Position numbers and translations under genes: made by a program
Source of the DNA: Candidatus Omnitrophota bacterium
GTDB taxonomy: Bacteria > Omnitrophota > Gorgyraeia > Duberdicusellales > Duberdicusellaceae
Assembly: GCA_021159015.1 (NCBI GenBank)
Contig: JAGGSQ010000069.1
Coordinates: 1,332-65,331 of the forward strand
Reading direction: 5' to 3'
DNA: 64,000 nt
Shown: one piece after another, positions 16,514 through 38,883 of the stretch
How the letters are laid out: every line of letters starts with the position of its first letter
How positions within the stretch are numbered: the first letter of the stretch is position 1
Notes under the pieces: model-generated
Databases searched by the model: none
What the model was told of the DNA's origin: nothing
What the model saw: only the letters and a program-made list of their open reading frames with translations

Positions 16514-16904
16514 TTTGGATAAACCTTCTTATTTTTACGTCCAGCGGCGCAAAATTAACTGCTGAGAGTTCTTTTGGGGTAATAAATCTGAAACTCGCAC
16601 ATTCTCTTGCTTCTATTTTTCCTCCCTTTAAAAAACAACGGTAAAGATGCACCTTTATTTTTATCTCCTCGTTCTCATCAAAAAATACTCCCAAAGGCTC
16701 GCCTACTTCTATTTCTATATTAAGCTCCTCTTTAATCTCGCGCTTCAAAGCCTGCCAATGGCTTTCTCCTCTCTCTACCCTTCCTCCCGGAAACTCCCAT
16801 AAAAGTCCATAGCTATCTTTTGCCTCGCGCTGAGCAATAAGAATCTTCCCCGCATGAACCAATAAACATGCTACTATTTCTAAAATCTCTTTGGCTTTCT
16901 TCAT
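16494..16904 (-). CDS. NUDIX hydrolase (MutT-like)
   Basis: Nudix box GGRVERGESHWQALKREIKEELNIE (GX5EX7REUXEEXGU). Confidence 0.85.
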   Translation of the reverse strand: MKKAKEILEIVACLLVHAGKILIAQREAKDSYGLLWEFPGGRVERGESHWQALKREIKEELNIEIEVGEPLGVFFDENEEIKIKVHLYRCFLKGGKIEARECASFRFITPKELSAVNFAPLDVKIRRFIQSGKIVL

Positions 16905-16913
16905 AGAGAAATA

Positions 16914-27304: not shown

Positions 27305-28705
27305 TTAAAAAGTATACTTCAACTCGCAGACAATCTGATTGTTATTGCGATACTGGCCGTTAGAACCATAAGCCGGACCCCAAAAGTGATGATAGCCTAA
27401 GGTAAGCCAGAGATTATCCCGCATCTCAAACTTAGTCTTAAAAGAGACCCGTCCGTCGTTGTCGTCGCCATAAATTATCAGCACTTCCGGCTTAATCCTC
27501 TCATATACAAAGTCTGTGGCTACCTTAAGGGTAACGTAGCTTTCTACTTTATCCATAAGCCCGTAAGTATAAGAACTCAGAGCGTGTTTGCCTTTAAAGG
27601 TAGGGTTGTTATGAATAAACTGGGCAAACTGCAGAGAGAAAAGCCAGTTTGTAAAGTAATATTTATCAAATCCTAATACATAGGTATATTTGTCACTTCT
27701 TTCGGTGTAACTTCTGTGCCCCTGGCTGCCATAATAAGTAGGCTCATTACGCAAGTAAGCAAATTCTCCTCTCAACGTCAACCCTTTCAGGAGGCCGGCG
27801 TTGGTAAAAGACTTGTTGAAAGAAAAACCGATGAGCTGCATTAGCTTGTGCCGGCGGGAATAATAATAATTACCCTTAGGCATACCTAAGGCGGGAATCA
27901 GACCGCCGGTAATTACTACACCATCGGAATAGGTATAAGCACTGGTAGAATAACCATAAAGCCAGTTGAGAGTGTAGTCTATGCCGGCAAATATAGAACG
28001 CCAGCGCAGACCAACTCGCGAATTTTTCAGTTTAGAAGAAGGCCGGTAAATCGCCGTACTCATACTGCCGCCGGCGGCTTCCATAATGCTTTTTACCGTA
28101 TCAAAATCATTCACTGCTTTGAAAGCAAAGGTATCGCCGGCCTTAGCCGAACGCGAAGCTTCAAAGTCAGGAATCAAGAGAAACTGTAAAGTGGAATTCA
28201 GCCAGGGCGAATACTCCACCTTAATCATCCACAAAGGGATTCTGATATCGGCAAAGTCGGGCAGCCAGTAGCGGGTCAAATCAAAAGGCATAACCCGGTC
28301 TAAAAAAGGCAGGCCGTCGGCCTGGCCCCAAACAACTTGCTGTTTGCCAATTCTCACATCCAGCTGGTCTGAAATATAATCCAGGTAGCAGTCGCGCAGC
28401 CATTCTGTTCTCTGCGTAGTGCCGGCTTTTTCCTGATTTCTGTCAAACGCCCCCTCTCTTATGCCGTAGGCAAAATCGTAAAAATAGCGCGGATGCACAA
28501 AGAGAGTCCATTCGTCTGAGATGCGGTATTGCGCTTCTAAATCAAGCGTATTGCGGAAAGATGAAAGGAACTGATGAGAGTTGTCATTGTTAGTCTGGAC
28601 CCATACTTCGGTTTTAACATAGCTGGAATATTCAAAATTATTGCCGGTTTGAGCCGCCAGAACAGATAAAGGAAATAAAAAACAGAAAAGTAATAGCTTC
28701 TTCAT
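27305..28705 (-). CDS. outer-membrane beta-barrel protein (DUF1302-like)
   Basis: Signal peptide MKKLLLFCFLFPLSVLAAQT. Aromatic-rich with alternating hydrophobic pattern. C-terminal ...CELKYTF, ending in the terminal Phe typical of OMPs. Confidence 0.6.
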   Translation of the reverse strand: MKKLLLFCFLFPLSVLAAQTGNNFEYSSYVKTEVWVQTNNDNSHQFLSSFRNTLDLEAQYRISDEWTLFVHPRYFYDFAYGIREGAFDRNQEKAGTTQRTEWLRDCYLDYISDQLDVRIGKQQVVWGQADGLPFLDRVMPFDLTRYWLPDFADIRIPLWMIKVEYSPWLNSTLQFLLIPDFEASRSAKAGDTFAFKAVNDFDTVKSIMEAAGGSMSTAIYRPSSKLKNSRVGLRWRSIFAGIDYTLNWLYGYSTSAYTYSDGVVITGGLIPALGMPKGNYYYSRRHKLMQLIGFSFNKSFTNAGLLKGLTLRGEFAYLRNEPTYYGSQGHRSYTERSDKYTYVLGFDKYYFTNWLFSLQFAQFIHNNPTFKGKHALSSYTYGLMDKVESYVTLKVATDFVYERIKPEVLIIYGDDNDGRVSFKTKFEMRDNLWLTLGYHHFWGPAYGSNGQYRNNNQIVCELKYTF

Positions 28706-28720
28706 TTTCTTACCTCCTTT

Positions 28721-29599
28721 TTACCAGCGGGAACGCATTAAGGCTTTTACGGTAAAATTATATTCACTAACCCCCTGGTCGTACTTTGTATCTTTCATCA
28801 AAATATCAGTGCGGTGGCCGGTCCGCAAATCTTTACACTCTAAAGACATCTGAGCAGGATATTTCTTATCGCCGGCTTTAGTCCAGACCCATTCCCGAAA
28901 AAGCGTCTTAAACAGCTTCCCGTTTTTATCGTAATACTCCTCAAAAATGCCGCCGCCGGTATCTTTATCTATCCACACCTTTCTTTTGGCATAATACCAG
29001 TGCGGCCTTTGGGGATAGCATTCTATAATAAAACACGGCTTGCCGGCGAGTTTAGTTTCTCCTGTTGCTTCAAACTTGTAGCCTTTAAAATTTTCTTCCC
29101 CAACTAATTTATAACTTTCATCTTCAAAACGGCGGGTAGACACCTCTTCTACGGTCATATCCGAGCCCAGAAAAGCATCGTCATTCTGAGAAGCAGAAAT
29201 CTTTCTTACCTTCTTAAGGGAAGGCAGCCAGAGCCAGACATCCTGCTCTCTTTTGGCATCTTCATAAGTCCAAGTTAGAACCGCTAATCCTTTAAGCGCT
29301 GTAGGGTAAGTAAAAGCTACGATATCTTTGTAAGAAATTCCCTCCTGACCTCCTTTTATCATCCGCATTCTTTTCCATATTCGTTTGCGCGTAAATCCAC
29401 TGCGGTCTACATATAAAACCTCCCCTATCTGCATATAATCACGGGCGAAAAAGGAATATTTGTTGTAGTAGGCAATGCGCATAATCTCATCGGCACTCAT
29501 TCCCTCCTGCGGTCGGTAAACTTTATAGTATTCCAGATTGGCCGCAAAAACTAAACTGCCAGCAAACAGCATTCCCCACAAAAGTCCTAGTTTTTTCAC
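28721..29599 (-). CDS. LolA-like outer-membrane lipoprotein-sorting / lipid-carrier protein (DUF1329-like)
   Basis: WLWLPSLKKVRKISASQNDDAFLGSDMTVEEV is characteristic of the LolA-like proteins encoded next to MMPL exporters. The likely start is the GTG (VKKLGLLWGMLFAGSLVFAANL signal peptide) at 29599, overlapping the MMPL stop. The ORF track extends the start to 29704. Confidence 0.6.
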   Translation of the reverse strand: MKKLGLLWGMLFAGSLVFAANLEYYKVYRPQEGMSADEIMRIAYYNKYSFFARDYMQIGEVLYVDRSGFTRKRIWKRMRMIKGGQEGISYKDIVAFTYPTALKGLAVLTWTYEDAKREQDVWLWLPSLKKVRKISASQNDDAFLGSDMTVEEVSTRRFEDESYKLVGEENFKGYKFEATGETKLAGKPCFIIECYPQRPHWYYAKRKVWIDKDTGGGIFEEYYDKNGKLFKTLFREWVWTKAGDKKYPAQMSLECKDLRTGHRTDILMKDTKYDQGVSEYNFTVKALMRSRW

Positions 29600-32046
29600 A
29601 CTCCACCTCCTGTTTTGAAAAAACTTACTTTTCTTCCCCGTCTCTCTACCCCCTTTTTTAATCTTCTCTTTACTCTTCCCCACAAAAAGGCCGGCTTTAG
29701 CCACCAGACCAGCAACGGAACCATTACTAAGGAGATAACCATATTAAGCACCAAGGACAGGCACAAAATTATCCCCAGCTTTGCCTGAAAGAGAATAGGA
29801 GAAAAAACCCATACCAGTATCCCCAGAGAAACTACTGCCCCACTGAAAAATACCGCTTTGCCGCTGGTAATCAAAGTATAATGGAGTATATCCTTATAAG
29901 TATGACGTTTCTGGCGCATCTCATCATACAAACGAGCCAGAATATAAATGCCGTAATTAATCCCCAGCCCTTCGCTTAAAGAGACCAGGGGAAGAATCTC
30001 GGTGGTAATAGAAATCCCCAGAAATCCCAAAAGAGAAAAAATAACTAAGTTGCTAAGAACAAGAGGCAGAAGCAGAAACCAGCCGGCAGTAAAAGAGCGG
30101 TAAATAAAGCTGACATAAAAGAAAATTAAAAGAGAGATAAAGAGAGCATTGGGAAGAATAGTTTTTTTAATGATATCGTTTATGGCATAGAAAATGCCAA
30201 TGTCTCCCCCCGCATAGAGAAATTTTATATCCTTGAATTTATGCTTTTGAAAGTACTGATGCGTTTTCTCCACCGCTAAATTTACCGTAGTTGATTTATG
30301 GTCGCGGAAATCAAATTTAATATTGCAGGATTTCTCGTCGCGGCTGATTAGATGGTCATAATCAGAGGGAAATCCCGAAAGCGTATAAAGAAACCAGTAT
30401 TGGGCAATAACATCGTCTTGGGAAGGAATTTTAAAATATTCTCTCTTGCCAGCAAACATAAACATATTTAAAGCTTTGACTGCATCTACCACGGACAAAG
30501 ACGATCCGACTTGTAGCACCTGCTGCTGGAGATACCTCTGAAAACTATCGATAGCCCTTAATTTATCAGCTTTAAGCAAAGAAGAGGAGGATTTTGCTAG
30601 AATATAGTAGGAATTTGTTCCTCCGAAATTGTCGTTAATAAATTTCTCGGCCCGGTTATAAGGGCTGTGGGGATAAAGATAACTTGAGCCTTCTGTATTG
30701 TCGCCAATAACTATTTTTTTTATCCCTCCCAGAGAAAGCAGGCCGGCAATAATGAAACCCGTAATTAAAATTGTGCCGGCTCTCTTATTCAAAGAGAAAA
30801 TACTTATCTTCGCCAGCATCCTATCTACCCACAGATGCCGTTCTTCTCTTTCCACGGCCAATATTTTAGGCCGGTGCAAAAATGACAAAACACAAGGCGT
30901 AAACATAAAGGAAGTGAAGAAGTTGGCGAAAATGCCCAGCCCGCTGGCCAGAGCCATACTTTTTATGGTAGAAAGAGGCACCATTACCAAAGATAAAAAC
31001 CCGAACCCGTCTGTAAATACACAGGCGAGCCCCGGCAGAAACAAATAGGCCATGGTATTTACTATAGCGTGCTTGCTTTTCATTTTAGGGCTGCGCATTT
31101 CCTCATAATAACGCTTAAGTGTGTGCACAGAATGGCTGATACCTAAAGAAAGAACAATAAAGGGCACCAAGATTGTAGCCGGGTCAAGCCGCAGGCCTAG
31201 AAGTTTCATTGTTCCCATACCCCAGATAGTAGCCATAGAAGAATCTAAAAGAGGCAGGAGTATGCCGCGGCGGGAACGAAAGGTAAAAAACAGAATAAGG
31301 GAAATCACCAGCATACTTACTGCCAATACCTTAAACATAGAAGGAAGGTAAAAATTAAGCCAGCCTTCTAAAATAGGACGGCCGGCAATATAAATCTCGG
31401 TGTTTTTGTCTTCATATTTTTTCTTCAACTTCTGCAAAGTAGAGAATATATAGCTGGTTTTTACTCCCGAATTAAAATCTACCTGGATAAAAGTGGACCG
31501 GAAATCACGCGAGACCATTTTGCCGTAAACATTGGGGTTAATCTCAATTTTTCTTTTCAATTCCTCCCTGCCTCTTTCGTCCTGAGGCGGATAACGCAAA
31601 AGGCGTTCTACAAAAAAACCCTCTTCGTCAGCTACAATATGTTTTATATGGCGGCTGGCTAAAGAATAAACGCGGCTGATATTTACACCCTTAACCAAAT
31701 ACAAATCTTCCGTTAAAGATATCAGCTTATCCAAAAACTTAGCATTAAGAATTGTCCCTTCCTTAACCCGCAGGGCCAAAGATACCTGGTTAAGGCCGCC
31801 GAAGATATGCGTAAGCTGGTGCTGCACTTCTACAAAGGGATGTTTCTGAGGCAGGAAATCTTCCAGGTGTGTTTCTACCTTTATCGTACCTAACACACTA
31901 AGAAAAAATACTGTTAACGCTGTGCAAGCTATAATGATATATATCCGCAGATGCACTATCCTGCGTGCCAGTCTATACTGCCAGCTACTGGTTAGACCTC
32001 TGCTTTCGCCTGAAGCATACTTTATTCTACCGGTGCCTGCTCCCAT
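29596..32046 (-). CDS. MMPL/RND-superfamily exporter (HpnN-like putative lipid exporter)
   Basis: 816 aa with two blocks of ~6 TM helices separated by large periplasmic domains, as in MMPL/SSD-type RND pumps. The start overlaps the upstream aldolase gene by 25 nt. Confidence 0.75.
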   Translation of the reverse strand: MGAGTGRIKYASGESRGLTSSWQYRLARRIVHLRIYIIIACTALTVFFLSVLGTIKVETHLEDFLPQKHPFVEVQHQLTHIFGGLNQVSLALRVKEGTILNAKFLDKLISLTEDLYLVKGVNISRVYSLASRHIKHIVADEEGFFVERLLRYPPQDERGREELKRKIEINPNVYGKMVSRDFRSTFIQVDFNSGVKTSYIFSTLQKLKKKYEDKNTEIYIAGRPILEGWLNFYLPSMFKVLAVSMLVISLILFFTFRSRRGILLPLLDSSMATIWGMGTMKLLGLRLDPATILVPFIVLSLGISHSVHTLKRYYEEMRSPKMKSKHAIVNTMAYLFLPGLACVFTDGFGFLSLVMVPLSTIKSMALASGLGIFANFFTSFMFTPCVLSFLHRPKILAVEREERHLWVDRMLAKISIFSLNKRAGTILITGFIIAGLLSLGGIKKIVIGDNTEGSSYLYPHSPYNRAEKFINDNFGGTNSYYILAKSSSSLLKADKLRAIDSFQRYLQQQVLQVGSSLSVVDAVKALNMFMFAGKREYFKIPSQDDVIAQYWFLYTLSGFPSDYDHLISRDEKSCNIKFDFRDHKSTTVNLAVEKTHQYFQKHKFKDIKFLYAGGDIGIFYAINDIIKKTILPNALFISLLIFFYVSFIYRSFTAGWFLLLPLVLSNLVIFSLLGFLGISITTEILPLVSLSEGLGINYGIYILARLYDEMRQKRHTYKDILHYTLITSGKAVFFSGAVVSLGILVWVFSPILFQAKLGIILCLSLVLNMVISLVMVPLLVWWLKPAFLWGRVKRRLKKGVERRGRKVSFFKTGGGV

Positions 32047-33008
32047 AATTTGAAAGTCCTTACTAATACCGGATACCAGCGGCTCATCTTAGTAAAATCA
32101 CCTTTAGTCTTTACCTTGCCTTGCGTAGAGGCGACAAAAGCATCCAGCTTGCGGTTGAAAACTTTTTTTAATATATCCGCGCGGCCAATGATTAAGAAAT
32201 CCACCCCTTCTGCTTCCTCGCTTACCTTAACTATGCGCCCAGCCTGGTAATGAAAGCAAACTGCCCTGCCGCTATCCTGGTCTTTAACCGCCAGCCGGCA
32301 GGTCAAATCATATTTCCTTCCCAGCTCCTGGGCCTGAGGGTCATTGTTAACCAATTCCGCCAGTTTAGCTATATGCGCGGGTGAAAGCAGTTTGTACTTC
32401 TTTAACGATCCCGGCTCCTGAGGCAGCTCTCTATCCGCGGCCAAAGCGGTGCGGGACTGAGATTTCAGAATCAGGTTTATTTTTGCCTGCTCCTCTAAAA
32501 GTTCAATGAGGCTGAACGCTTCTTTGAAATCCTGGCCTATGCTTACCACCCCGTGCTGTCCTAAAACTACTATATTGGAATCAGCCAGCGCCTCTAAAAC
32601 CGGTGCAATATGGGTAACCGTAGGAGTCTCCTGAGGAACAACTTTTATTTCTCCCAAATAAAATTTCGCCTCAAAAGAAAATATGTCCAGCCTGCCAAAA
32701 TAATGAAAAAAGGCTACTGTATAAGGAGAATGCGAATGCAGGACGACTTTGACGTGAGGGAATTTACTATGTATGCCTAAATGCAAACCCTTCTCGCTGG
32801 TAGCTTCTCCTTTTCCCTCCAAAACATTGCCCTTGCTGTCAACCATAAGAATATCTTCATAAGAAAGCTCTCCCAAATAACAGTCGTGAGAAGTTATAAG
32901 AATACCTTCGTCTACTTTTAAAGAAATATTGCCGCTTCTGGCGCTAACTAAACCCCGTTCATTCAGGCGGCGGGCCCAATAGATTATTTGTTCTTTTTGC
33001 TTATCCAT
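32022..33008 (-). CDS. class II aldolase/adducin-fold protein fused to a C-terminal SCP2-like sterol/lipid-carrier domain (Ald2/DrdA-like)
   Basis: N-terminal half has RRLNERGLVSARSGNISLK and the HSHSPY metal-binding histidines of class II aldolases. C-terminal ~110 aa (DFLIIGRADILKKVFNRKLDAFVASTQGKVKTKGDFTKM) resembles SCP2. I placed the start at MDKQKEQ (ATG 33008). Confidence 0.65.
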   Translation of the reverse strand: MDKQKEQIIYWARRLNERGLVSARSGNISLKVDEGILITSHDCYLGELSYEDILMVDSKGNVLEGKGEATSEKGLHLGIHSKFPHVKVVLHSHSPYTVAFFHYFGRLDIFSFEAKFYLGEIKVVPQETPTVTHIAPVLEALADSNIVVLGQHGVVSIGQDFKEAFSLIELLEEQAKINLILKSQSRTALAADRELPQEPGSLKKYKLLSPAHIAKLAELVNNDPQAQELGRKYDLTCRLAVKDQDSGRAVCFHYQAGRIVKVSEEAEGVDFLIIGRADILKKVFNRKLDAFVASTQGKVKTKGDFTKMSRWYPVLVRTFKLWEQAPVE

Positions 33009-33486
33009 CTCCTTCCTCCTTAATGAGATCAAGCCGAGGCTTCTCGACCTCCCCCAGAAGACTTTCTGCATACATAGGACGTCCGGCTAAAGTAGAAGCA
33101 TCACTATCAGAAAATTTATCTAAATCCAGCTCTGTCCCTGCTGCAAATTTCACATCCACATTGTGATATTTAGCTAATTCATATACATACAAAGAACTAC
33201 TTAAACACAAATATCCATCGTCCATCTTCTTCTGATAAAGAATCAGAAGCTCCTTTATTTTTTGCTGGTAAAAAAGATGCCCCAGCATATTATCAGTACA
33301 ATATAAAAATTCTAAACCAGCAGCAGATAAAGCATCTCTATTCCATCCCAGTCCCAATAAATACGGCCGCAACTCAGGATTTACCAATACGAACCCCCTA
33401 TGAAATTTCTCTTTCAAATAAATAACGGCCTCTTCAGACAAAATTCCCCAAAACAAAACAGCTTTTTTTATATTCGTTATTTCCAT
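33001..33486 (-). CDS. truncated eIF2B/MtnA-like paralog (C-terminal Rossmann-like half only; catalytic motifs absent)
   Basis: ALSAAGLEFLYCTDNMLGHLF...IKELLILYQKKMDDGYLCLSSSLYVYELAKYHNVDVKFAAGTELD parallels the GADR...NKIGTY...VPFYVAA region of MtnA, but lacks the GADR Asp and the upstream CN(T)G Cys. 161 aa. Confidence 0.5.
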   Translation of the reverse strand: MEITNIKKAVLFWGILSEEAVIYLKEKFHRGFVLVNPELRPYLLGLGWNRDALSAAGLEFLYCTDNMLGHLFYQQKIKELLILYQKKMDDGYLCLSSSLYVYELAKYHNVDVKFAAGTELDLDKFSDSDASTLAGRPMYAESLLGEVEKPRLDLIKEEGDG

Positions 33487-34430
33487 TTCCTCTTATCGTT
33501 CAGGCGCAGCTCCTCCAGCCCTACCCAGCCGCTAATCAGTTCTTGGGGCACAATGTCAAAACTGGGATATATAGCCTCTATATTCTCTTTATCAGGTATA
33601 TTCTCTAAAAACATAAAAACTTCCTGCGGGGGACGCTCTTCAATTCCAACCTTTTCTATAGAAAAATCATAAGGATATTGTACAAAAGCATAGACAGGAA
33701 TGTTGTAGATGCCAGCCAGACAGCTTAAAGCATAAGTTCCAACTTTATTAATAATATCTCCCTGTAAATTCGCCCTGTCCGCGCCACAAACTACAGCGTT
33801 AACTTTTTTCTCAGCCATAACTTTAGCAACCTGGTTGTCACAGATAAGAATAGTATTTACCCCTGCTCGCTGCAACTCCCACGTAGTAAGACGTGCTCCT
33901 TGCAGATAAGGACGTGTCTCGCTAACATAAAACCTGTATTCTTTACCTAAATTCCTCAAAGCCTCAGCCAGATAAATTAGCTCCCCGTTAATATTACATA
34001 TGGTAAGAATAGAACTTTGCTGTGGCAAGACCTCAGCTAAGGCGGCGCAGCGCCTGCGGCGGGCTTTGTCAAAACCGTCCAAAAATGTGGCGATTATTTC
34101 AGATAATGGCTTATCTTCTCTCAAAGACTTTTTAAGAAGAGAGGAAAGAGAAAAAAAATCAAAGGTAGGACGCGTGGCTTTGAATTTCTTGGCCACCAAG
34201 TCCGCCAGAGTACTTTTATCCTGGTACTCCTCCTCTAGCAGCTGGCAAGTATAGAAATATAAAAGCACCTGGCCGAAGGCCCGTGTCTTCATCTCGCGCA
34301 GGCAAAACAGGGCATCTTCTAAATTAAGCACCTCCAGATACTTCTCTTCCCAGGGCAGAAGTGTCTCATCCAGAACCAGAATTTTTTTGCCCTGCATCCT
34401 GACTGGAAACGAAAGAGGTGAATTAAACAT
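33477..34430 (-). CDS. mtnA: S-methyl-5-thioribose-1-phosphate / 5-deoxyribose-1-phosphate isomerase (eIF2B-family, MtnA/DrdI-like)
   Basis: LVLDETLLPWEE at the N-terminus. TICNINGELIYLAEA with the catalytic Cys. SETRPYLQGARLTTWEL. CGADRANLQGDIINKVGTY with the catalytic Asp. Confidence 0.75.
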   Translation of the reverse strand: MFNSPLSFPVRMQGKKILVLDETLLPWEEKYLEVLNLEDALFCLREMKTRAFGQVLLYFYTCQLLEEEYQDKSTLADLVAKKFKATRPTFDFFSLSSLLKKSLREDKPLSEIIATFLDGFDKARRRRCAALAEVLPQQSSILTICNINGELIYLAEALRNLGKEYRFYVSETRPYLQGARLTTWELQRAGVNTILICDNQVAKVMAEKKVNAVVCGADRANLQGDIINKVGTYALSCLAGIYNIPVYAFVQYPYDFSIEKVGIEERPPQEVFMFLENIPDKENIEAIYPSFDIVPQELISGWVGLEELRLNDKRKWK

Positions 34431-35163
34431 CTGAATCTAAAACAAATTCGAATACTCCCTTAATCATTTTCTCCTGAGCCTCGAACAGCTTAAAATCAGA
34501 AAAACCTAATTCTCCGGTTATTAGATTATCGGAAGCCAGAAGCACCGCACAACTCTTTTTGCCGTAAAGGTTAGCCAGGGTAACAAAGGGACTGGTCACC
34601 ATATCCACAGCAATGGCCCCTTTGGCGATGTAAGAGTTGACTATTTCTTTTGCCTCCCGGAACAAAGCGTCTGTTGTCCATATGCCGCCTCTATGCACTT
34701 TGCCTTTTTTCTCCATAACTTTACACAGCTTATCTGACAAGTCTTTATCTACCGCAGGCGAGAAATCATCCTTGACATAATAACGCGTAGCACCATCTCC
34801 CCGCAGGATTTTATCGGCAATAATAAAATTTCCTATCTCAATATCTTCTCGCAATGCCCCGCAGGAGCCCAGCCGCACCAATATGTCTATGCCGGCATTA
34901 CAGAGAAGCTCGGTAACAAAGGCGGAGTCGGGAGAATAAAAGCCGCCGTTGCCTACGGTAATCTTTCTGCCCTTATAGAACCCTGTCCAGAAAGTATAGC
35001 CTAAGAAGGTAAAATTCTTCGTCGGCCTCTCCAGCATATCCAGGCACAATTTAGCTCTCTGCGGCTGGCCGGAGACAAGAGCAATCTTGCCAAAATCGCC
35101 TTCTTTGAACTGTAAGTGCTCCAGCAAATCTTTCGGTTTTAAGTGGACATCCCGCTGCATCAT
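34423..35163 (-). CDS. DeoD-type purine/5'-deoxynucleoside phosphorylase (PNP/UDP family I)
   Basis: GQPQRAKLCLDML...TGFYKGRKITVGNGGFY...VRLGSCGAL aligns to E. coli DeoD (GDPLRAKYIAE...TGTYKGRKISVMGHGMG...RVGSCGA). 246 aa. Confidence 0.75.
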   Translation of the reverse strand: MMQRDVHLKPKDLLEHLQFKEGDFGKIALVSGQPQRAKLCLDMLERPTKNFTFLGYTFWTGFYKGRKITVGNGGFYSPDSAFVTELLCNAGIDILVRLGSCGALREDIEIGNFIIADKILRGDGATRYYVKDDFSPAVDKDLSDKLCKVMEKKGKVHRGGIWTTDALFREAKEIVNSYIAKGAIAVDMVTSPFVTLANLYGKKSCAVLLASDNLITGELGFSDFKLFEAQEKMIKGVFEFVLDSDV

Positions 35164-35213: not shown

Positions 35214-36686
35214 TTAGACGTAAAGTTCGTCGGTTTGAGATGCTTTCTCAAAACGTGACATATTCTCCATATAAGAACGGAAGCAAAGCCCTACTAAAGG
35301 ATGATAAATCCTATTGTGCAGTATCCTTTCTACGCGTCCGGGCTTAGAATAGAATTCCCGCAAGGCCCAGGCTCCCAGCCTCCCAATAGCTTCCTGGGAC
35401 AAATGTTCAGTAGGAACCACAGGATGGTGAAAGTCCCAGGTTTTTAAATCGTCGAATTTGACCCAGCCTCTTTCTACATATTTAGGCCATATAGGAGAGC
35501 CAGGCATAGGCGTAAGATACTGTAGGGCGCAGATATCCGGGTCTATTCTGTCTACCGCTTCAAAACGCTTCTTTATTCTATATTCATCATCATTCTCAAA
35601 GCCCATCATCCAGGTAAGGACAGTAGCAATCCCTGCTTCTTTCAATTTAGCTACTGTCTCCTCTACCTGTTCTACGGTAATACCTTTGCCTAACTCCTCT
35701 AACTCTTCGTCCGTGGCTACCTCAATTCCCGCCAAAGCTAAAAAACAGCCTGCCTCTTTCATTTTAGGAAATAAATCTACATCCCGCAGGTAATAAGGAG
35801 CACGGCCTAAAAAGCACCAGGAAACCTTTTTGCTCAGACCCCGCTTAATCATATCCTCAATAAACTCTTCCATGCGCTGACGGGAGACATTGAAGCAGTC
35901 GTCCATCATGGTAACTACTTTTACCCCGAACTTATCGTGAAGAAGCTCCAGCTCGTCCGCTACGAGTTTGCCAGAACGAGCCCGAAAAAATCTTAAATCA
36001 GCGTTTCCCCGCGAGTCAAACTGCGACCACTCATAGCAAAAATTGCAACCGGCCGGACATCCCCGCGAGTTCCAGGTTTCTGTATAATGCTTCCAATAAT
36101 CATGCCCTACATATTTCTCCATAGGAAACAAATCATAAGCGGGCATAGGCAGTTCGTCCAGATTCTTTATTAACCCACGGTAGGAGGTAAGCACTATCTC
36201 TTCTCCCTCACGGAAAGCAAGACCTTTCACCTCTTTTACCTCTCTGCCGGACGCTATTGCTTCCACCAGCTCCACAAAGCTTATGTCCTGCTCTCCTACC
36301 AGACAATAATCAATCCAGGGGTTCCTCCTGAGAATCTGGCGCGGTGCAGAAGCATAAACCAAGCCGCCAGCAATAATAGTAATTTCGGGATACTTCTCTT
36401 TAACCAGCTTGGCTGCCTGATTATAACGGTAAACCACTGCCGCCCCTCCGGTAGTATGCAGAATATCTCCTATATGAATGATGTCCGGACGGGCTTTACC
36501 AATCTCCTCCAGCATCTGCTCGTTGCTCATTTCCCAGGCGCGACAGTCCAGAACCTGCAAAGCATATTCGGGATGCTTCTGGCGCAGAAGCGCGGCTATT
36601 TGCGCCTGCCCTATATTGGGCGCACGGTGTTTCCCCCAGGTTGACCAGGCACCTAAATTGGGCTGAAGAAACATTACTTTCATCAT
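35214..36686 (-). CDS. B12-binding-domain radical SAM protein (class B rSAM)
   Basis: N-terminal cobalamin-binding Rossmann-like domain, then the CPAGCNFCYEW CxxxCxxC rSAM cluster motif. 490 aa. Confidence 0.8.
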   Translation of the reverse strand: MMKVMFLQPNLGAWSTWGKHRAPNIGQAQIAALLRQKHPEYALQVLDCRAWEMSNEQMLEEIGKARPDIIHIGDILHTTGGAAVVYRYNQAAKLVKEKYPEITIIAGGLVYASAPRQILRRNPWIDYCLVGEQDISFVELVEAIASGREVKEVKGLAFREGEEIVLTSYRGLIKNLDELPMPAYDLFPMEKYVGHDYWKHYTETWNSRGCPAGCNFCYEWSQFDSRGNADLRFFRARSGKLVADELELLHDKFGVKVVTMMDDCFNVSRQRMEEFIEDMIKRGLSKKVSWCFLGRAPYYLRDVDLFPKMKEAGCFLALAGIEVATDEELEELGKGITVEQVEETVAKLKEAGIATVLTWMMGFENDDEYRIKKRFEAVDRIDPDICALQYLTPMPGSPIWPKYVERGWVKFDDLKTWDFHHPVVPTEHLSQEAIGRLGAWALREFYSKPGRVERILHNRIYHPLVGLCFRSYMENMSRFEKASQTDELYV

Positions 36687-36697
36687 AAACTCCTTTT

Positions 36698-38254
36698 TCA
36701 GTTTTTTATTCGGTTTTCTGCCATATGCTTCAATCTGCCTTCAGCAATCTTGCCGCTGCGCGTCTTGGGAAGCTCTTTCACAAACTCAAAGTAATGGGGG
36801 ATTTTAAAATGCGCCAGCTTCTTCTTCAAAAATTCTCTTAATTCTTCCTCTTTGACTTCTGTATCTTCTTTACTTACTATAAATACTTTGGGCACTTCTC
36901 CCCGCAAGCGGTCAGAAACACCCACAGCGGCACACTCCTGCACCGCCGGATGCTCGGACAAAGCTTTCTCTATCTCCCACAAAAAAACTATCTCTCCTCC
37001 TACTTTCAGCATCTGCTTCTTCCTTCCGGCAATGTAATAAAATCCTTTCTCATCTCTGTAGGCTAAATCGCCGGTGCGAAAAAAACCCTCTGGCGTAAAA
37101 GAGGCTTCATTTAAAGAGGGATTTTTATAATAGCCTTTGAATACGGCTTTGCCTCTGATTAACAACTCACCTACCTCGCCTTCTTTCACCTCCTCTCCTT
37201 CCTCATTAACAAGTTTTACTTCTACATCGGGCGAAGACACGCCGATACTCTCGATATTAGCAGAATCGGGCGGCGTAACAATGTTAGGAGGAGAAGTTTC
37301 GGTCATCCCCCAACCGTTGAGAAGTTTTGCCTGTGGACAAAGTTTGTGGAATTTCTTAAGCAAGCGCGGCGAAGAGGGAGCGCCAAAAACGACTACATAC
37401 CTCAAGGTTTTTAGATTAAATCCCTCCAAATCTTTAAGGGTAAACAGCGCTACATACATAGAAGGCACTATCCAGAAAAAGGTAATCTTAAATTGCTCAA
37501 TATTCTTAAGGAACTGGCGGGGAGCAAATCTTTCCATTAACACAACCTGCAGACCAAAATATACCATTAACAGAAAATACACCCATCCCCCTGCATGAGA
37601 AAGAGGAATAGCACAAAGAACATTATCGTTCTCATTGATATCGGAAAGGAAATACTTTACTTGCCGCGGCGAATACTCAAGATTGTCGTAAGTAATAACT
37701 ACGGCTTTAGGCTGGCCGGTGGTTCCGGAAGTATAAGAAATTATAGCCTCCTCACCCCGAGCATTGTCTATAAAGGCTCCTGCCTTTTCCTCTGCCCCGT
37801 TCTTTATCAGCTGAGAAAAACTCAAAAAATCACCCTCCCGAGTTTCTTGTGTTTCATCAACTAACACTATCTTCACCCCTGTATCTCTCTCCAGCCTGTC
37901 ATAATTTATATTGATACGCCTCCTGGCAATAAGGATATCTACCTGGGCGTGTTTCAAAATGCTTATTAATTCCTCCTCGCTCAACATAAAATCAAGCGGC
38001 ACAGCACAAAAGTGCAAAGAGAATATAGCCGTGTAGGCTACTATATACTCCCAGCTATTGGGAAGAAATATACCTATGCGTGCCGGTTGGCAAGGAGTTA
38101 ATTCCCAAAGGCCTGCCGCACACTTAAGGCCTAATTGGTGCAGCTGGCCAAAGGTTATTTTTTTCTCTCCTGAAATAAGAGCCACCTTATCAGGGAATAA
38201 TTTACTCTTATTTTTTAGAAGAAGAGTAAAATTAAAGATTTTTCTCTCTTCCAT
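36698..38254 (-). CDS. AMP-dependent acyl-CoA synthetase/ligase (adenylate-forming enzyme)
   Basis: YTSGTTGQPKAVV (AMP-binding P-loop), GWGMTETS, FRTGDLAY and PKTRSGKI motifs. 518 aa. Confidence 0.85.
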   Translation of the reverse strand: MEERKIFNFTLLLKNKSKLFPDKVALISGEKKITFGQLHQLGLKCAAGLWELTPCQPARIGIFLPNSWEYIVAYTAIFSLHFCAVPLDFMLSEEELISILKHAQVDILIARRRININYDRLERDTGVKIVLVDETQETREGDFLSFSQLIKNGAEEKAGAFIDNARGEEAIISYTSGTTGQPKAVVITYDNLEYSPRQVKYFLSDINENDNVLCAIPLSHAGGWVYFLLMVYFGLQVVLMERFAPRQFLKNIEQFKITFFWIVPSMYVALFTLKDLEGFNLKTLRYVVVFGAPSSPRLLKKFHKLCPQAKLLNGWGMTETSPPNIVTPPDSANIESIGVSSPDVEVKLVNEEGEEVKEGEVGELLIRGKAVFKGYYKNPSLNEASFTPEGFFRTGDLAYRDEKGFYYIAGRKKQMLKVGGEIVFLWEIEKALSEHPAVQECAAVGVSDRLRGEVPKVFIVSKEDTEVKEEELREFLKKKLAHFKIPHYFEFVKELPKTRSGKIAEGRLKHMAENRIKN

Positions 38255-38573: not shown

Positions 38574-38786
38574 TTATACTTTATAAAAGGCCTTCACTAA
38601 ATTCTGGATATTGAGGGACAAATTAAAAAGTAAACAGGTGATAGCTGCCGCAAATATATCTTTAGCCGTAACGGTTGTAAAACCTAAATCATATTCCACA
38701 CCCAATAGCCGCATAGCTACGCTGGCAATTACTAATACAAAACCTGCTCCTAAAAAGAAATCTTCGAATAATTTATATTCTTTCAT
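38574..38786 (-). CDS. small 2-TM membrane protein (71 aa), paralog 2
   Basis: I placed the start at MKEYKLFEDFF (ATG 38786), preceded by GGGGGAGG. The ORF-track extension would overlap the divergent nfeD gene. ~45% identical to paralog 1. Confidence 0.55.
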   Translation of the reverse strand: MKEYKLFEDFFLGAGFVLVIASVAMRLLGVEYDLGFTTVTAKDIFAAAITCLLFNLSLNIQNLVKAFYKV

Positions 38787-38796
38787 CCTCCCCCTT

Positions 38797-38826
38797 TTTA
38801 CTAAAACAGCTTTTTTAGAATATAAT
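38797..38826 (+). promoter_or_regulatory. putative promoter of the nfeD-stomatin operon (TTTACT-18-TATAAT)
   Basis: Consensus -10 TATAAT at 38821-38826. Weak -35 TTTACT 18 nt upstream. About 57 nt upstream of the ATG at 38884. Confidence 0.35.
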
Positions 38827-38883
38827 AAAACCCTTAACCTGTCAACTGAAATTTTAAAGGGAAGCAATTTGACAGCTAAAAAA

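What the first reader, a model, noticed from the sequence alone, without database searches (positions are those of the whole stretch)
32022..35163. DHAP-shunt-like 5'-deoxyadenosine/MTA disposal module placed directly behind a radical-SAM gene
The three enzymes are a DeoD-type nucleoside phosphorylase, an MtnA/DrdI-type isomerase (catalytic Cys and GADR Asp present) and a class-II aldolase (HSHSPY). These are exactly the three activities of the DHAP shunt and the 5-deoxyribose salvage route. In those pathways MTA or 5'-deoxyadenosine is converted to a 1-phosphate sugar, then to the ketose, then to DHAP plus (methylthio)acetaldehyde or acetaldehyde. 5'-dAdo is the inhibitory by-product of every radical-SAM turnover, and the B12-rSAM gene sits immediately upstream. 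The ALDH a few genes downstream could oxidise the released aldehyde. No MtnK, MtnB, MtnC or MtnD homologs are nearby, which argues against a classical methionine-salvage cycle.
Basis: partly seen in the sequence, partly recalled or inferred. Interest (0 to 1): 0.7.

Follow-up and report, generated by a model that had tools for sequence, protein, structure and literature searches.

The report
Nucleoside-to-DHAP module inside Omnitrophota lipid cluster
The three genes are real and look like the known route that breaks 5'-deoxyadenosine-type nucleosides into DHAP plus an aldehyde, but in this uncultured Omnitrophota bacterium they are built into a conserved lipid/polyketide synthesis-and-export gene cluster and carry a lipid-binding domain, so they may serve that cluster's chemistry rather than general waste disposal.

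Summary
On the minus strand, 32022-35163 encodes a DeoD-type nucleoside phosphorylase, an MtnA-like isomerase with its catalytic Cys and Asp, and a class II aldolase with all metal and acid-base residues. A B12 radical-SAM gene lies upstream and an ALDH downstream.

- The aldolase is fused to a strongly conserved SCP2 lipid-binding domain.
- A fourth gene (33001-33486) encodes a truncated, non-catalytic isomerase paralogue.
- The phosphorylase lacks canonical Arg43 and the ribose-binding Glu181.

About 45 related Omnitrophota loci show a conserved cluster: AMP-ligase or type II PKS, B12-rSAM, isomerase pair, aldolase-SCP2, ALDH, and often an HAE3 RND/LolA-like/DUF1302 exporter. The SCP2 domain, the isomerase pair and the rSAM occur together or are absent together.

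I conclude the chemistry is DHAP-shunt-like (phosphorolysis, isomerisation, retro-aldol, oxidation). However, the module is a dedicated part of a lipid/polyketide pathway. Its substrate is probably a hydrophobic 5'-substituted nucleoside rather than plain 5'-deoxyadenosine, but that rival is not excluded.

Verdict: partly supported; new variant of a known kind; interest 0.6.

The parts
36698..38254 (-). AMP-forming acyl ligase (FadD/MenE-like), first gene of the operon
   Evidence: Pfam AMP-binding plus AMP-binding_C. The best NCBIfam match is long-chain-fatty-acid-CoA ligase PRK06187, 389.7 bits against a cut-off of 476. An AMP-ligase lies beside or near the phosphorylase gene in most related loci and directly precedes it in variant-B genomes.
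35214..36686 (-). B12-binding radical-SAM enzyme (BchE/HpnJ-like)
   Evidence: Pfam B12-binding plus Radical_SAM, with a CxxxCxxC motif. NCBIfam BchE scores 218 bits (cut-off 481) and HpnJ 141.7 (cut-off 577.6). PDB matches are TokK and AprD4. It is linked to the aldolase-SCP2 gene in 22 of 28 loci with enough flank.
34423..35163 (-). DeoD-type nucleoside phosphorylase of an Omnitrophota-specific subfamily
   Evidence: PNP_UDP_1. Against curated E. coli DeoD it keeps His4, Gly20, Arg24, Arg87, Ser90, Met180 and Asp204. It has the substitutions R43L, M64F, F159L, E179D, E181V and R217K. The 'DMV' motif and the N-terminal MMQRDxH motif are conserved in orthologues. There are 461 homologues with E below 1e-10; the 120 listed are 65-96% identical and every named one is Omnitrophota/Omnitrophica.
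33477..34430 (-). MtnA-like aldose-1-phosphate/ketose-1-phosphate isomerase (IF-2B family), catalytic subunit
   Evidence: Pfam IF-2B. NCBIfam MtnA subfamily scores 172.8 bits (cut-off 271). PDB matches are 1t9k and 2yrf. It is 30% identical to E. coli S88 MtnA. The Cys and Asp are kept, and there is a 7-residue deletion after the catalytic Cys.
33001..33486 (-). Small IF-2B-like protein (161 aa): truncated, non-catalytic paralogue of the isomerase C-terminal half
   Evidence: It has no Pfam hit on its own. The profile of 37 orthologues aligns to isomerase residues 166-255 with 96.6% probability and E 6.9e-10. The ExRPxxxG and CTDN motifs are kept; the Cys and the GADR Asp are absent. It lies immediately upstream of the aldolase-SCP2 gene in 35 of 40 loci. 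Its ends overlap both neighbouring genes.
32022..33008 (-). Class II (metal-dependent) aldolase fused to a C-terminal SCP2 lipid-binding domain. The aldolase domain is about 32440-33008, the linker about 32415-32450 and the SCP2 domain about 32022-32400.
   Evidence: Pfam Aldolase_II plus SCP2. Glu72, His91, His93 and His152 are invariant. The whole-protein AF2 model has pLDDT 86.7 and pTM 0.75, with residues 187-198 disordered. The SCP2 domain modelled alone has pLDDT 90.2, and its top Foldseek hits are SCP2 and UbiJ-SCP2. The nearest solved sequence is DrdA, but the family forms its own clade.
29596..32046 (-). HAE3-family RND (MMPL) inner-membrane transporter; its start overlaps the aldolase stop by 25 nt
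   Evidence: Pfam MMPL plus sterol-sensing domain. NCBIfam HAE3 TIGR00921 scores 190.5 bits (cut-off 351.9). The same arrangement is seen in L005-L014 and many variant-B loci.
28721..29704 (-). Periplasmic LolA-like/DUF1329 protein (true start probably downstream of 29704)
   Evidence: Pfam LolA_like (E 3e-41) and DUF1329. It has a signal-peptide-like N-terminus.
27305..28705 (-). DUF1302 outer-membrane protein
   Evidence: Pfam DUF1302 (E 3e-23), with a signal peptide. HAE3 RND plus DUF1302 plus DUF1329 resembles the AmeABCD hydrophobe efflux system (PMC6394551).
25744..27207 (-). NAD(P)-dependent aldehyde dehydrogenase
   Evidence: Pfam Aldedh (E 3.5e-112); it reaches no curated NCBIfam cut-off. 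It is present downstream of the aldolase-SCP2 gene in 20 of 26 loci with enough flank.

Best explanation
The three genes are part of a ten-gene, tightly overlapping operon (38254 to 25744, minus strand). This operon is the 'reduced' form of a gene cluster conserved across Candidatus Omnitrophota.

**Proposed pathway**
1. The phosphorylase removes adenine from a 5'-substituted 5'-deoxyadenosine-type nucleoside, giving a 5-substituted ribose-1-phosphate.
2. The MtnA-like isomerase, working with its non-catalytic small paralogue, converts this to the ribulose-1-phosphate.
3. The DrdA-like class II aldolase cleaves it to DHAP plus an aldehyde, X-CH2-CHO.
4. The ALDH oxidises the aldehyde to X-CH2-COOH.

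This is the chemistry of the DHAP shunt and the fluoroacetate pathway.

The module is not general housekeeping. It is a dedicated limb of a lipid or polyketide pathway, together with the B12 radical-SAM enzyme, the AMP-ligase (or a type II PKS in relatives) and the HAE3/LolA-like/DUF1302 exporter. I infer that X is hydrophobic (lipid- or polyketide-borne) and that the SCP2 domain holds this tail while the aldolase works on the sugar phosphate.

**Shown versus inferred**
- Shown: the gene families, the catalytic residues, the SCP2 fold, the conserved synteny and the joint presence or absence of the parts.
- Inferred: the order of the steps, the direction of the pathway, the hydrophobic nature of X, and how X comes to be attached to C5'.
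For: - **Families and residues.**
- **The full four-step chain has a biosynthetic precedent.** Phosphorylase, isomerase, aldolase and NAD-dependent ALDH make fluoroacetate in S. cattleya (PMC8945431).
- **Conserved cluster.** It appears in about 45 loci. One contig carries cupin, AMP-ligase, PNP, ApbA, KS, CLF, ACP, cyclases, MFS, KR, rSAM, decarboxylase, aminotransferase, IF2B, IF2Bs, AldSCP2 and ALDH as a single co-directional block.
- **The SCP2 domain is real and constrained.** Its mean column identity is 75%, against 61% for the whole protein. Its structural neighbours all bind lipids: SCP2, UbiJ and alkylsulfatase SCP2 domains.
- **Co-variation.** IF2Bs accompanies 35 of 40 SCP2-bearing aldolases and none of the 7 SCP2-less ones. 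The SCP2-less loci also lack the B12-rSAM.
- **Translational coupling.** Overlapping genes run from the phosphorylase through to the RND exporter, including a 25-nt overlap between aldolase and MMPL.
- **The phosphorylase pocket is more hydrophobic.** The changes are R43L, M64F and E181V.
- **Possible second route in variant-B loci.** They add a Zn-ADH and a protein that passes the NCBIfam cut-off for LsrF thiolase (361.9 bits against 297). I infer these could convert the same ribulose-1-phosphate to DHAP plus X-CH2-CO-CoA. That would converge with the aldolase, ALDH and AMP-ligase route of the window.
- **Lipid precedent.** The hopanoid pathway combines HpnH (rSAM adenosylation), HpnG (PNP homologue) and HpnN (HAE3) (PMC13459092 and PMC6394551).
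Against: - No enzyme in the cluster is known to attach a hydrophobic group to C5' of adenosine. Known adenosylating radical-SAM enzymes (HpnH, MqnE, ArsS) lack a B12 domain, whereas BchE/HpnJ-type enzymes normally release plain 5'-deoxyadenosine.
- Every characterised phosphorylase/MtnA/aldolase trio acts on small 5'-deoxy nucleosides.
- The phosphorylase is widespread in Omnitrophota. It also occurs far from the isomerase and aldolase, and with an aldolase but no isomerase (L035, L051, L054). It may therefore have a separate or housekeeping role.
- SCP2-aldolase fusions also occur alone in other phyla (L045, L046).
- Nothing here measures a substrate.
- The SCP2 domain could serve docking or oligomerisation instead of ligand binding.
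Confidence: 0.45

Rival explanations
1. The trio, with the ALDH, is a DHAP shunt or 5-deoxyribose-type salvage route for plain 5'-deoxyadenosine (and/or MTA), the by-product of the adjacent B12 radical-SAM enzyme. It yields adenine, DHAP and acetaldehyde (or methylthioacetaldehyde), which the ALDH oxidises. It sits in the cluster because a high-flux lipid-modifying rSAM makes stoichiometric 5'-dAdo.
For: - The enzyme families, catalytic residues and gene order match.
- DrdA is the nearest solved aldolase by sequence.
- The S. solfataricus hexameric MTAP is among the best PNP matches.
- The rSAM, isomerase pair and ALDH are present or absent together, as expected if acquiring the rSAM brought its disposal steps along.
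- BchE/HpnJ-type rSAMs are expected to release 5'-dAdo.
- There are no methionine-salvage genes in the window.
- Phosphorylase-type three-gene clusters of this kind are known (PMC6079011).
Against: - A conserved SCP2 lipid-binding fusion has no role with C2 aldehydes.
- The extra IF2B-like subunit is unexplained.
- The phosphorylase lacks Glu181 and Arg43. It is coupled to the AMP-ligase rather than to the rSAM.
- Loci L050 and L053 keep AMP-ligase, a degenerate PNP, the aldolase and the exporter with no rSAM and no isomerase.
- Detoxification needs only the first step in E. coli (PMC10986504).
- All scores are below the curated cut-offs, and the MtnP model is essentially unmatched (17.9 bits against 274.85).
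Confidence: 0.33
2. The aldolase runs in the synthetic direction. DHAP plus a fatty or polyketide aldehyde, held by the SCP2 domain, condense to a 5-alkyl-ketose-1-phosphate. The isomerase turns this into the furanose-1-phosphate, and the phosphorylase may couple it to a base. The result would be a polyol or ribosyl-type head group on a lipid that the RND system exports.
For: - Class II DHAP aldolases favour condensation thermodynamically (general knowledge).
- The SCP2 domain and the exporter point to a lipid product.
- An HpnJ-like rSAM could then remodel a sugar head group, as proposed for the hopanoid cyclitol ether (PMC13459092).
- In L018, L026 and L027 the rSAM gene sits between the two isomerase genes.
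Against: - The conserved ALDH (20 of 26 loci) fits removal of an aldehyde product better than supply of an aldehyde substrate.
- No acyl-CoA or ACP reductase was seen in the cluster.
- There is no precedent for MtnA-family enzymes working in the ketose-to-aldose direction in biosynthesis.
Confidence: 0.08
3. This is ordinary nucleoside carbon catabolism, akin to the non-carboxylating pentose bisphosphate pathway of haloarchaea. Adenosine or AMP (for example the AMP released by the ligase) is phosphorolysed, isomerised and cleaved to DHAP plus glycolaldehyde, which the ALDH oxidises.
For: - The same three families are used in that pathway.
- There is a weak NCBIfam match to the haloarchaeal ribulose-1-phosphate aldolase (51.3 bits) and to AMP nucleosidase (43.9 bits).
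- The phosphorylase is adjacent to an AMP-forming ligase.
Against: - No ribose-1-phosphate kinase or RuBP phosphatase is present.
- The isomerase matches MtnA (172.8 bits) far better than ribose-1,5-bisphosphate isomerase (79.9 bits).
- The ribose-hydroxyl-binding Glu181 is lost.
- It does not explain the SCP2 domain, the rSAM or the exporter.
Confidence: 0.06

Closest known systems
DHAP shunt (MtnP, or Pfs plus MtnK; MtnA; Ald2) of Rhodospirillum rubrum, R. palustris and ExPEC E. coli
   Same: - It uses the same three reaction types and protein superfamilies.
- Phosphorylase-initiated variants exist.
- The products are adenine, DHAP and an aldehyde (PMC10986504).
- The catalytic Cys and Asp of MtnA and the metal ligands of the aldolase are conserved.
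   Different: - The phosphorylase is DeoD-type and not MtnP (TIGR01694, 17.9 bits against 274.85).
- The isomerase is only 30% identical to E. coli MtnA. It has a 7-residue deletion and an extra non-catalytic partner.
- The aldolase lies outside the (DrdA,(Ald2,FucA)) group and is fused to SCP2.
- The module is embedded in a lipid/polyketide cluster with an rSAM, ALDH and exporter rather than standing alone or with sugar transporters.
5-deoxyribose salvage, DrdK-DrdI-DrdA (Bacillus thuringiensis; PMC6079011)
   Same: - DrdA (PDB 6btd/6btg) is the best solved sequence match of the aldolase domain.
- The logic is the same: isomerise the 1-phosphate, then cleave to DHAP plus an aldehyde.
   Different: - There is no kinase gene.
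- Identity to DrdA is only 26.5%.
- The SCP2 fusion, the IF2B-like extra subunit and the cluster context are absent from Drd clusters.
Fluoroacetate/4-fluorothreonine pathway of Streptomyces cattleya (fluorinase, 5'-FDA phosphorylase FlB, isomerase, aldolase, NAD-dependent aldehyde dehydrogenase)
   Same: It is the only known pathway with the full four-step series of phosphorylase, isomerase, aldolase and ALDH used biosynthetically. It turns a 5'-X-5'-deoxyadenosine into X-CH2-COOH (PMC8945431). This is the best model for how the module may work.
   Different: - No fluorinase, chlorinase or other SAM C5'-substituting enzyme is in the cluster.
- X is unknown here.
- The phylum, the anaerobic lifestyle and the SCP2 fusion all differ.
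Hopanoid side-chain pathway (HpnH radical-SAM adenosylation, HpnG phosphorylase homologue, HpnJ B12-type radical SAM, HpnN HAE3 exporter)
   Same: It is a lipid pathway that combines a radical-SAM enzyme, a PNP-family enzyme acting on an adenosylated lipid, and an HAE3 RND exporter (PMC13459092 and PMC6394551). HpnJ is the second-best NCBIfam match of the window's rSAM.
   Different: - All Hpn models are far below cut-off: HpnG 42.6 against 187, HpnJ 141.7 against 577.6 and HpnN 52.3 against 751.9.
- There is no squalene-hopene cyclase or HpnH in the window.
- The hopanoid pathway keeps the ribose carbons, whereas here an isomerase and aldolase would cut them off.
AmeABCD-type HAE3 RND efflux systems with DUF1302 and DUF1329/LolA-like partners
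   Same: The same three families are encoded together. AmeABCD is implicated in efflux of hydrophobic compounds (PMC6394551). In Pseudomonas putida the DUF1302/DUF1329 genes PP_0765/6 are reported with similar fitness scores in a fatty-acid and fatty-ester catabolism screen.
   Different: - No AmeC-like fourth component is present.
- Here the transporter gene overlaps the aldolase-SCP2 gene.
- The transported compound is unknown.

Membership tests
DHAP shunt (MtnP/MtnA/Ald2) | MtnP-type MTA/5'-dAdo phosphorylase (or Pfs plus MtnK) as the entry enzyme | tested here: not met
   TIGR01694 MTAP scores 17.9 bits against a cut-off of 274.85. The best match is DeoD-type (101.7 against 230). No MtnK is present. 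A hexameric DeoD-like MTAP (1jds) is among the top PDB hits, so the activity is still possible.
DHAP shunt (MtnP/MtnA/Ald2) | MtnA isomerase with catalytic Cys and Asp | tested here: inconclusive
   The Cys (ICN) and Asp (GADR) are present. Identity to E. coli S88 MtnA is 30%, with a 7-residue deletion after the Cys. NF004326 scores 172.8 against 271 and TIGR00512 scores 165.2 against 279.
DHAP shunt / Drd salvage | Ald2/DrdA-type class II aldolase (metal ligands plus catalytic Glu; groups with Ald2 or DrdA) | tested here: inconclusive
   Glu72, His91, His93 and His152 are invariant. BLAST scores are DrdA 78.6, Ald2 52.8, FucA 47.0, AraD 32.3 and RhaD 28.9 bits. In an NJ tree the family is its own clade outside (DrdA,(Ald2,FucA)). 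E. coli Ald2 and FucA are sister paralogues, so phylogeny alone cannot assign the substrate.
DHAP shunt / Drd salvage | Conversion of 5'-dAdo or MTA to DHAP plus acetaldehyde or methylthioacetaldehyde | not testable with these tools
   This needs enzyme assays.
5-deoxyribose salvage (DrdK-DrdI-DrdA) | DrdK/MtnK-family kinase in the cluster | tested here: not met
   No kinase family was found among the operon genes or elsewhere in the window.
Classical methionine salvage pathway | MtnB dehydratase, MtnC or MtnW/X, and MtnD present | tested here: not met
   None is in the 64-kb window. The aldolase domain matches the MtnB models only weakly (66.4 against 226; 56.5 against 137). Absence from the whole genome is not testable here.
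Fluorinase-type 5'-X-5'-deoxyadenosine pathway | Phosphorylase, isomerase, aldolase and NAD-dependent ALDH in series | tested here: met
   All four families are encoded in one operon. The ALDH is conserved in 20 of 26 loci. This is a match at family level only.
Fluorinase-type 5'-X-5'-deoxyadenosine pathway | SAM-dependent halogenase/hydroxide adenosyltransferase that makes the 5'-X nucleoside | tested here: not met
   No such family appears among the operon or window ORFs scanned with Pfam.
Hopanoid side-chain system (HpnG/HpnJ/HpnN) | Proteins reach the HpnG, HpnJ and HpnN equivalog scores, with a squalene-hopene cyclase in the neighbourhood | tested here: not met
   HpnG scores 42.6 against 187.1, HpnJ 141.7 against 577.6 and HpnN 52.3 against 751.85. 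No cyclase is in the window.
SCP2 sterol/lipid-carrier domain | SCP2 alpha/beta fold with a sequence match above the Pfam threshold | tested here: met
   PF02036 scores 27.0 bits against 21.3. The AF2 model has pLDDT 90.2. Foldseek matches T. thermophilus SCP2 with TM 0.76-0.79 and UbiJ-SCP2 with E 4e-7. Ligand binding was not tested.
eIF2B/MtnA family (for the 161-aa ORF) | Homology to the Rossmann-like C-terminal domain, and presence of the catalytic Cys and Asp | tested here: inconclusive
   Homology is met: hhalign gives 96.6% probability and E 6.9e-10 to isomerase residues 166-255. The catalytic residues and the whole N-terminal domain are absent. It is therefore a family member by descent but probably not an enzyme.
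HAE3 RND + DUF1302 + DUF1329 (AmeABCD-like) transporter | The three families encoded together | tested here: met
   HAE3 TIGR00921 scores 190.5 against 351.9, so this holds at family level only. No AmeC-like gene is present.
Non-carboxylating pentose bisphosphate pathway | Ribose-1-phosphate kinase, R15P isomerase, RuBP phosphatase and Ru1P aldolase | tested here: not met
   The kinase and phosphatase are absent. The e2b2 model scores 79.9 against 314 and the Ru1P aldolase model 51.3 against 300.
Ladderane-type lipid cluster (antiSMASH-style call) | TIGR04072 B12-rSAM of ladderane clusters | tested here: not met
   It scores 85.1 bits against a cut-off of 360. 'Ladderane-like' clusters have been reported in Omnitrophota MAGs (PMC9902471). 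Whether those calls are this cluster was not checked.

The most novel reading that the evidence does not exclude
The cluster may encode a new lipid or polyketide tailoring logic. A hydrophobic substrate becomes linked to C5' of an adenosyl group, for example by 5'-deoxyadenosyl radical addition from the B12-type radical-SAM enzyme, as HpnH and MqnE do. The nucleoside is then trimmed by the phosphorylase, the heteromeric isomerase, the SCP2-tethered aldolase and the ALDH. In relatives a Zn-ADH plus LsrF-like thiolase could do part of this job. Only ribose C5' and C4' would remain on the product. The net result is a radical two-carbon (carboxymethyl or acetyl-CoA-type) extension that releases DHAP, and the product is then exported to the outer membrane by the HAE3/LolA-like/DUF1302 system.
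Probability: 0.22. Interest if true: 0.9.

Novelty: new variant of a known kind. Interest (0 to 1): 0.6.

Why it matters
- **If the dedicated-substrate reading is right**, this would be the first case where DHAP-shunt chemistry is used as a biosynthetic tool on a lipid or polyketide. SAM-derived ribose would act as a disposable handle or two-carbon donor. It would also give a function to a phylum-wide cluster in Omnitrophota, an uncultured group whose envelope lipids are unknown.
- **If the by-product reading is right**, it would be a clear example of a biosynthetic cluster that carries its own complete 5'-deoxyadenosine salvage route. It would also show that DeoD-type phosphorylases can feed it.
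- **Either way, two new protein architectures are defined.** One is a class II aldolase fused to SCP2. The other is an MtnA-like isomerase paired with a truncated non-catalytic paralogue. Both can be tested directly in vitro.

Tried and rejected
- **Whole-protein fold search.** FucA, YgbL, DrdA and the Aquifex protein all match about equally. Fold does not discriminate substrate.
- **Promoter and terminator scans.** Counts equal the shuffled expectation, so operon limits rest on gene spacing only.
- **SCP2 profile against PDB sequences.** Only marginal hits to alkylsulfatase SCP2 domains (E 0.13-0.58). The structural route was needed.
- **Literature.** No paper holds both 'SCP2' and 'class II aldolase'. 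No paper links LsrF with MtnA or with 5-deoxyribulose. The one 'Omnitrophota'+'polyketide' paper I opened (PMC9902471) gives only generic BGC counts and 'ladderane-like' calls; the rest I saw only as titles and abstracts.
- **Amidohydro_2 as a phosphorylase substitute in variant-B loci.** Rejected. It is an ACMSD/IDCase/LigW-type decarboxylase, and those genomes have an orthologous phosphorylase elsewhere.
- **A classical or anaerobic methionine-salvage variant built on the class IV aminotransferase.** Not pursued. The aminotransferase is absent from the window, optional in relatives, and fits starter-unit supply together with the ApbA reductase and the AMP-ligase.
- **Acyl-adenylate as the phosphorylase substrate.** Considered because of the AMP-ligase/PNP coupling. 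Judged chemically unlikely because the mixed anhydride is labile.
- **Genome-wide absence of mtn, pfs or luxS genes.** This could not be tested because only loci, not whole genomes, are accessible.

Full report
**1. What is in the sequence**

Homologue names place the window in a Candidatus Omnitrophota genome of about 41-45% GC.

Between 38254 and 25744 the minus strand carries ten closely spaced or overlapping genes. By Pfam and NCBIfam they are:
- AMP-forming acyl ligase (36698-38254)
- B12-binding radical-SAM enzyme (35214-36686)
- PNP_UDP_1 phosphorylase (34423-35163)
- IF-2B/MtnA-like isomerase (33477-34430)
- a 161-aa ORF (33001-33486)
- class II aldolase with a C-terminal SCP2 domain (32022-33008)
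- MMPL/HAE3 RND transporter (29596-32046)
- LolA-like/DUF1329 protein (28721-29704)
- DUF1302 protein (27305-28705)
- aldehyde dehydrogenase (25744-27207)

The aldolase ORF as listed starts at 33071. However, the Pfam match begins at residue 27, and Met22 at 33008 is preceded by AAGGAGG. Homologues also start there.

The rest of the window is housekeeping: Rnf complex, FtsH, PurN/PurH, FolE, MnmE, EF-G, LipA/LipB, glycine cleavage genes and others. It contains no methionine-salvage genes.

**2. Check of the three enzymes**

*Phosphorylase.* The best matches are hexameric DeoD-type enzymes, including B. cereus adenosine phosphorylase and the S. solfataricus hexameric MTAP. I aligned it to curated E. 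coli DeoD taken from NC_000913.3.
- It keeps His4, Gly20, Arg24, Arg87, Ser90, Met180 and Asp204.
- It has R43L, M64F, F159L, E179D, E181V and R217K.
- From established knowledge of E. coli PNP, Arg43 binds phosphate from the neighbouring subunit and Glu181 binds the ribose 2'/3'-hydroxyls.
- The 'DMV' motif (in place of 'EME') and an N-terminal MMQRDxH extension are conserved in orthologues.

*Isomerase.* It is 30% identical to E. coli S88 MtnA, a real DHAP-shunt enzyme (L062). It retains the catalytic Cys and Asp but has a 7-residue deletion just after the Cys.

*Aldolase.* Glu72, His91, His93 and His152 are invariant. The best solved sequence match is DrdA (6btd/6btg). BLAST gives DrdA 78.6, E. 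coli Ald2 52.8, FucA 47.0, AraD 32.3 and RhaD 28.9 bits. In an NJ tree the Omnitrophota family is its own clade outside (DrdA,(Ald2,FucA)).

None of the three reaches any curated NCBIfam cut-off. E. coli Ald2 and FucA are sister paralogues, so this test has little power.

**3.

(a) *The SCP2 fusion.*
- Pfam SCP2 is above threshold.
- The whole-protein model has pLDDT 86.7 and pTM 0.75. It shows two domains joined by a disordered linker at residues 187-198.
- The domain modelled alone has pLDDT 90.2. Foldseek matches T. thermophilus SCP2 (TM 0.76-0.79), UbiJ-SCP2, alkylsulfatase SCP2 domains and eukaryotic SCP2. All of these bind lipids.
- The domain is more conserved than the protein as a whole: 75% against 61% mean column identity.

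(b) *The 161-aa ORF.* Its profile aligns to the C-terminal half of the isomerase (96.6% probability, E 6.9e-10). It lacks the N-terminal domain, the catalytic Cys and the GADR Asp. I read it as a non-catalytic partner subunit. That role is an inference.

**4. Comparative context**

I retrieved about 55 related loci through protein homologues and a scan of one genome per species. Nearly all are Omnitrophota. I annotated them by BLAST against reference proteins.

The arrangements are:
- **Variant A** (the window; L005-L014): AMP-ligase, rSAM, PNP, IF2B, IF2Bs, Ald-SCP2, ALDH, MMPL, LolA-like, DUF1302, and sometimes an omptin.
- **Variant B** (the commonest): KS, CLF, ACP, PF04199 cyclase, SRPBCC, MFS, KR, rSAM, Amidohydro_2, class IV aminotransferase, IF2B, IF2Bs, Ald-SCP2, ALDH. 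Some add an LsrF-like gene plus a Zn-ADH, and some add MMPL, LolA-like and DUF1302.
- **Variant C** (L018, L026, L027): the rSAM gene lies between IF2B and IF2Bs.
- **Reduced forms:** L050 and L053 have AMP-ligase, a PNP-like gene, an aldolase without SCP2, MMPL, LolA-like and DUF1302. L051 has only PNP and an aldolase without SCP2.

Among 40 species-level loci with a full Ald-SCP2, the counts where enough flank is available are:

| Gene | Loci with it |
|---|---|
| IF2Bs | 35 of 40 |
| IF2B | 34 of 38 |
| rSAM | 22 of 28 |
| ALDH | 20 of 26 |
| MMPL | 13 of 24 |

None of the 7 loci whose aldolase lacks SCP2 has IF2B, IF2Bs or the B12-rSAM.

Variant-B genomes do have an orthologous phosphorylase (65-73% identical). 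It always lies directly after an AMP-ligase, and in L059 the two genes overlap by 4 nt. In some genomes this pair heads the same mega-cluster (WJJJ01000007.1: L060 plus L002). In others it lies elsewhere in the chromosome.

The Amidohydro_2 gene is an ACMSD/IDCase/LigW-type decarboxylase. The 'DeoC' gene passes the curated cut-off for LsrF thiolase (361.9 against 297).

**5. Interpretation**

It is precedented three times:
- the DHAP shunt (PMC10986504)
- the Drd salvage route (PMC6079011)
- the fluoroacetate pathway, which includes the ALDH step (PMC8945431)

What the comparative data change is the role. The module co-evolves with a B12-rSAM, an acyl-activating or polyketide-forming unit and a hydrophobe exporter. 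Its aldolase carries a constrained lipid-binding domain that appears only where the isomerase pair and the rSAM are present.

I therefore favour (0.45) a dedicated pathway limb acting on a nucleoside whose 5'-substituent is hydrophobic. The plain 5'-deoxyadenosine/MTA by-product route is the main rival (0.33).

Points for the rival:
- BchE/HpnJ-type enzymes are expected to release 5'-dAdo.
- No known adenosylating rSAM has a B12 domain.

Points against it:
- the SCP2 fusion
- the extra isomerase subunit
- the altered phosphorylase pocket
- coupling of the phosphorylase to the AMP-ligase rather than to the rSAM
- the reduced loci that lack both rSAM and isomerase yet keep ligase, phosphorylase-like gene, aldolase and exporter
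- the E. coli result that detoxification needs only the first step

An additional inference concerns the Zn-ADH plus LsrF-like pair of variant B. Oxidising C4 of the ribulose-1-phosphate and then thiolysing it would give DHAP plus X-CH2-CO-CoA. The window's aldolase, ALDH and AMP-ligase would reach the same end point. This is untested.

**6. Comparison with known systems and novelty**

The module works like a DHAP shunt or fluoroacetate-type route. It fails or leaves open most membership tests for the named families:
- The MtnP model is unmatched.
- The MtnA and Ald2/DrdA assignments are inconclusive.
- The Hpn models are far below cut-off.

The hopanoid system (HpnH, HpnG, HpnJ, HpnN) is the nearest lipid analogue in composition but not in sequence.

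I found no description of an aldolase-SCP2 fusion or of this cluster. 'Ladderane-like' BGC calls have been reported in Omnitrophota MAGs, and variant B has a FabF-like KS, an ACP and a B12-rSAM. Whether those calls correspond to this cluster was not checked.

I rate it a new variant of a known kind, with interest 0.6. The most novel reading not excluded is a radical adenosylation followed by trimming to a two-carbon extension. I give that probability about 0.22.

**7. Limits**

- No substrate was measured.
- Whole genomes could not be searched for alternative salvage genes.
- The tree uses few references and NJ only.
- The roles assigned to E. coli PNP residues, to FucA Tyr113 and to the futalosine and arsenosugar precedents rest on my own knowledge of the literature, not on tool output.

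Noticed in passing
window 33001-33486 (-): A 161-aa ORF lies between the isomerase and the aldolase and overlaps both. It is a truncated IF-2B paralogue without catalytic residues and is conserved in 35 of 40 related loci. It is possibly a regulatory or structural partner, recalling the non-catalytic eIF2B subunits.
   Followed up: yes
L021:11049-12887; also L001, L019, L023, L028, L030, L036: Many variant-B clusters add a protein that passes the curated NCBIfam cut-off for LsrF (3-hydroxy-5-phosphonooxypentane-2,4-dione thiolase; 361.9 bits against 297) next to a Tdh/IolM-like Zn-dehydrogenase. Together they could turn a 5-substituted ribulose-1-phosphate into DHAP plus an acyl-CoA.
   Followed up: partly
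L002/L060 (WJJJ01000007.1), L020, L021, L028, L034, L037 and others: Omnitrophota carry a conserved type II PKS-like set (KS, CLF, ACP, PF04199 cyclase, SRPBCC cyclase, MFS, KR) directly upstream of the rSAM/isomerase/aldolase block. An ACMSD/LigW-type decarboxylase, a class IV aminotransferase and an ApbA-type reductase are also present. The product is unknown.
   Followed up: partly
L050:756-5359 and L053:7790-15184: These are reduced clusters: AMP-ligase, a PNP-like gene that has lost Arg24 and Ser90, an aldolase without SCP2, MMPL, LolA-like and DUF1302. They have no rSAM, isomerase or ALDH. This unit is unexplained by any salvage model.
   Followed up: partly
L058:9904-13073 (CP070807.1): Next to the AMP-ligase/PNP pair of a variant-B genome, on the opposite strand, lie four genes: a Radical_SAM+DUF3641 protein, a fatty-acid hydroxylase-family protein, a DUF547 protein and a GT2 glycosyltransferase. 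From memory, the Radical_SAM+DUF3641 architecture is that of the adenosyl-transferring ArsS family.
   Followed up: no
L031 (JAIWAR010000017.1) and several 'uncultured Planctomycetia', 'Desulfobacteraceae', 'Victivallales' and 'Clostridia' records: An Omnitrophota-type cluster (61% identity) sits on a contig binned as a Methanosarcinales archaeon. This may be mis-binning or a physical association, since some Omnitrophota are reported to attack methanogens (my own knowledge). Many other record titles carry taxonomic labels that look inconsistent with the gene content.
   Followed up: no
L006:11041-11766 and 16637-17812: A Y1 transposase and an IS110 transposase are inserted between cluster genes (after the aldolase, and between the LolA-like and DUF1302 genes) without removing any of them.
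   Followed up: no
L045:8521-9483 and L046:8036-8998: Aldolase-SCP2 fusions (45% identical) occur alone, without isomerase, phosphorylase or rSAM, in MAGs labelled Clostridia and Elusimicrobia. Their neighbours are OsmC, a small OMP and QueH. The fusion therefore has a life outside this cluster.
   Followed up: partly
window 4837-9622 (-): A complete Rnf-type complex operon (RnfC, D, G, E, A, B families) is present, consistent with an anaerobic, ferredoxin-based energy metabolism.
   Followed up: no
window 42352-44343 (-) and 52999-55086 (-): Two large ORFs (663 aa and 695 aa) have no significant Pfam match; the first has only a sub-threshold DUF7700 hit.
   Followed up: no
window 38574-39035 (-) / 38611-40209 (+): A 153-aa membrane-protein-like ORF upstream of the AMP-ligase overlaps the long N-terminal extension of the divergent NfeD ORF. 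The true NfeD start is probably much further downstream, because its Pfam match begins at residue 134. A perfect sigma-70-like site (TTGACA-17-TATAAT) lies at 38869-38897 (+).
   Followed up: no
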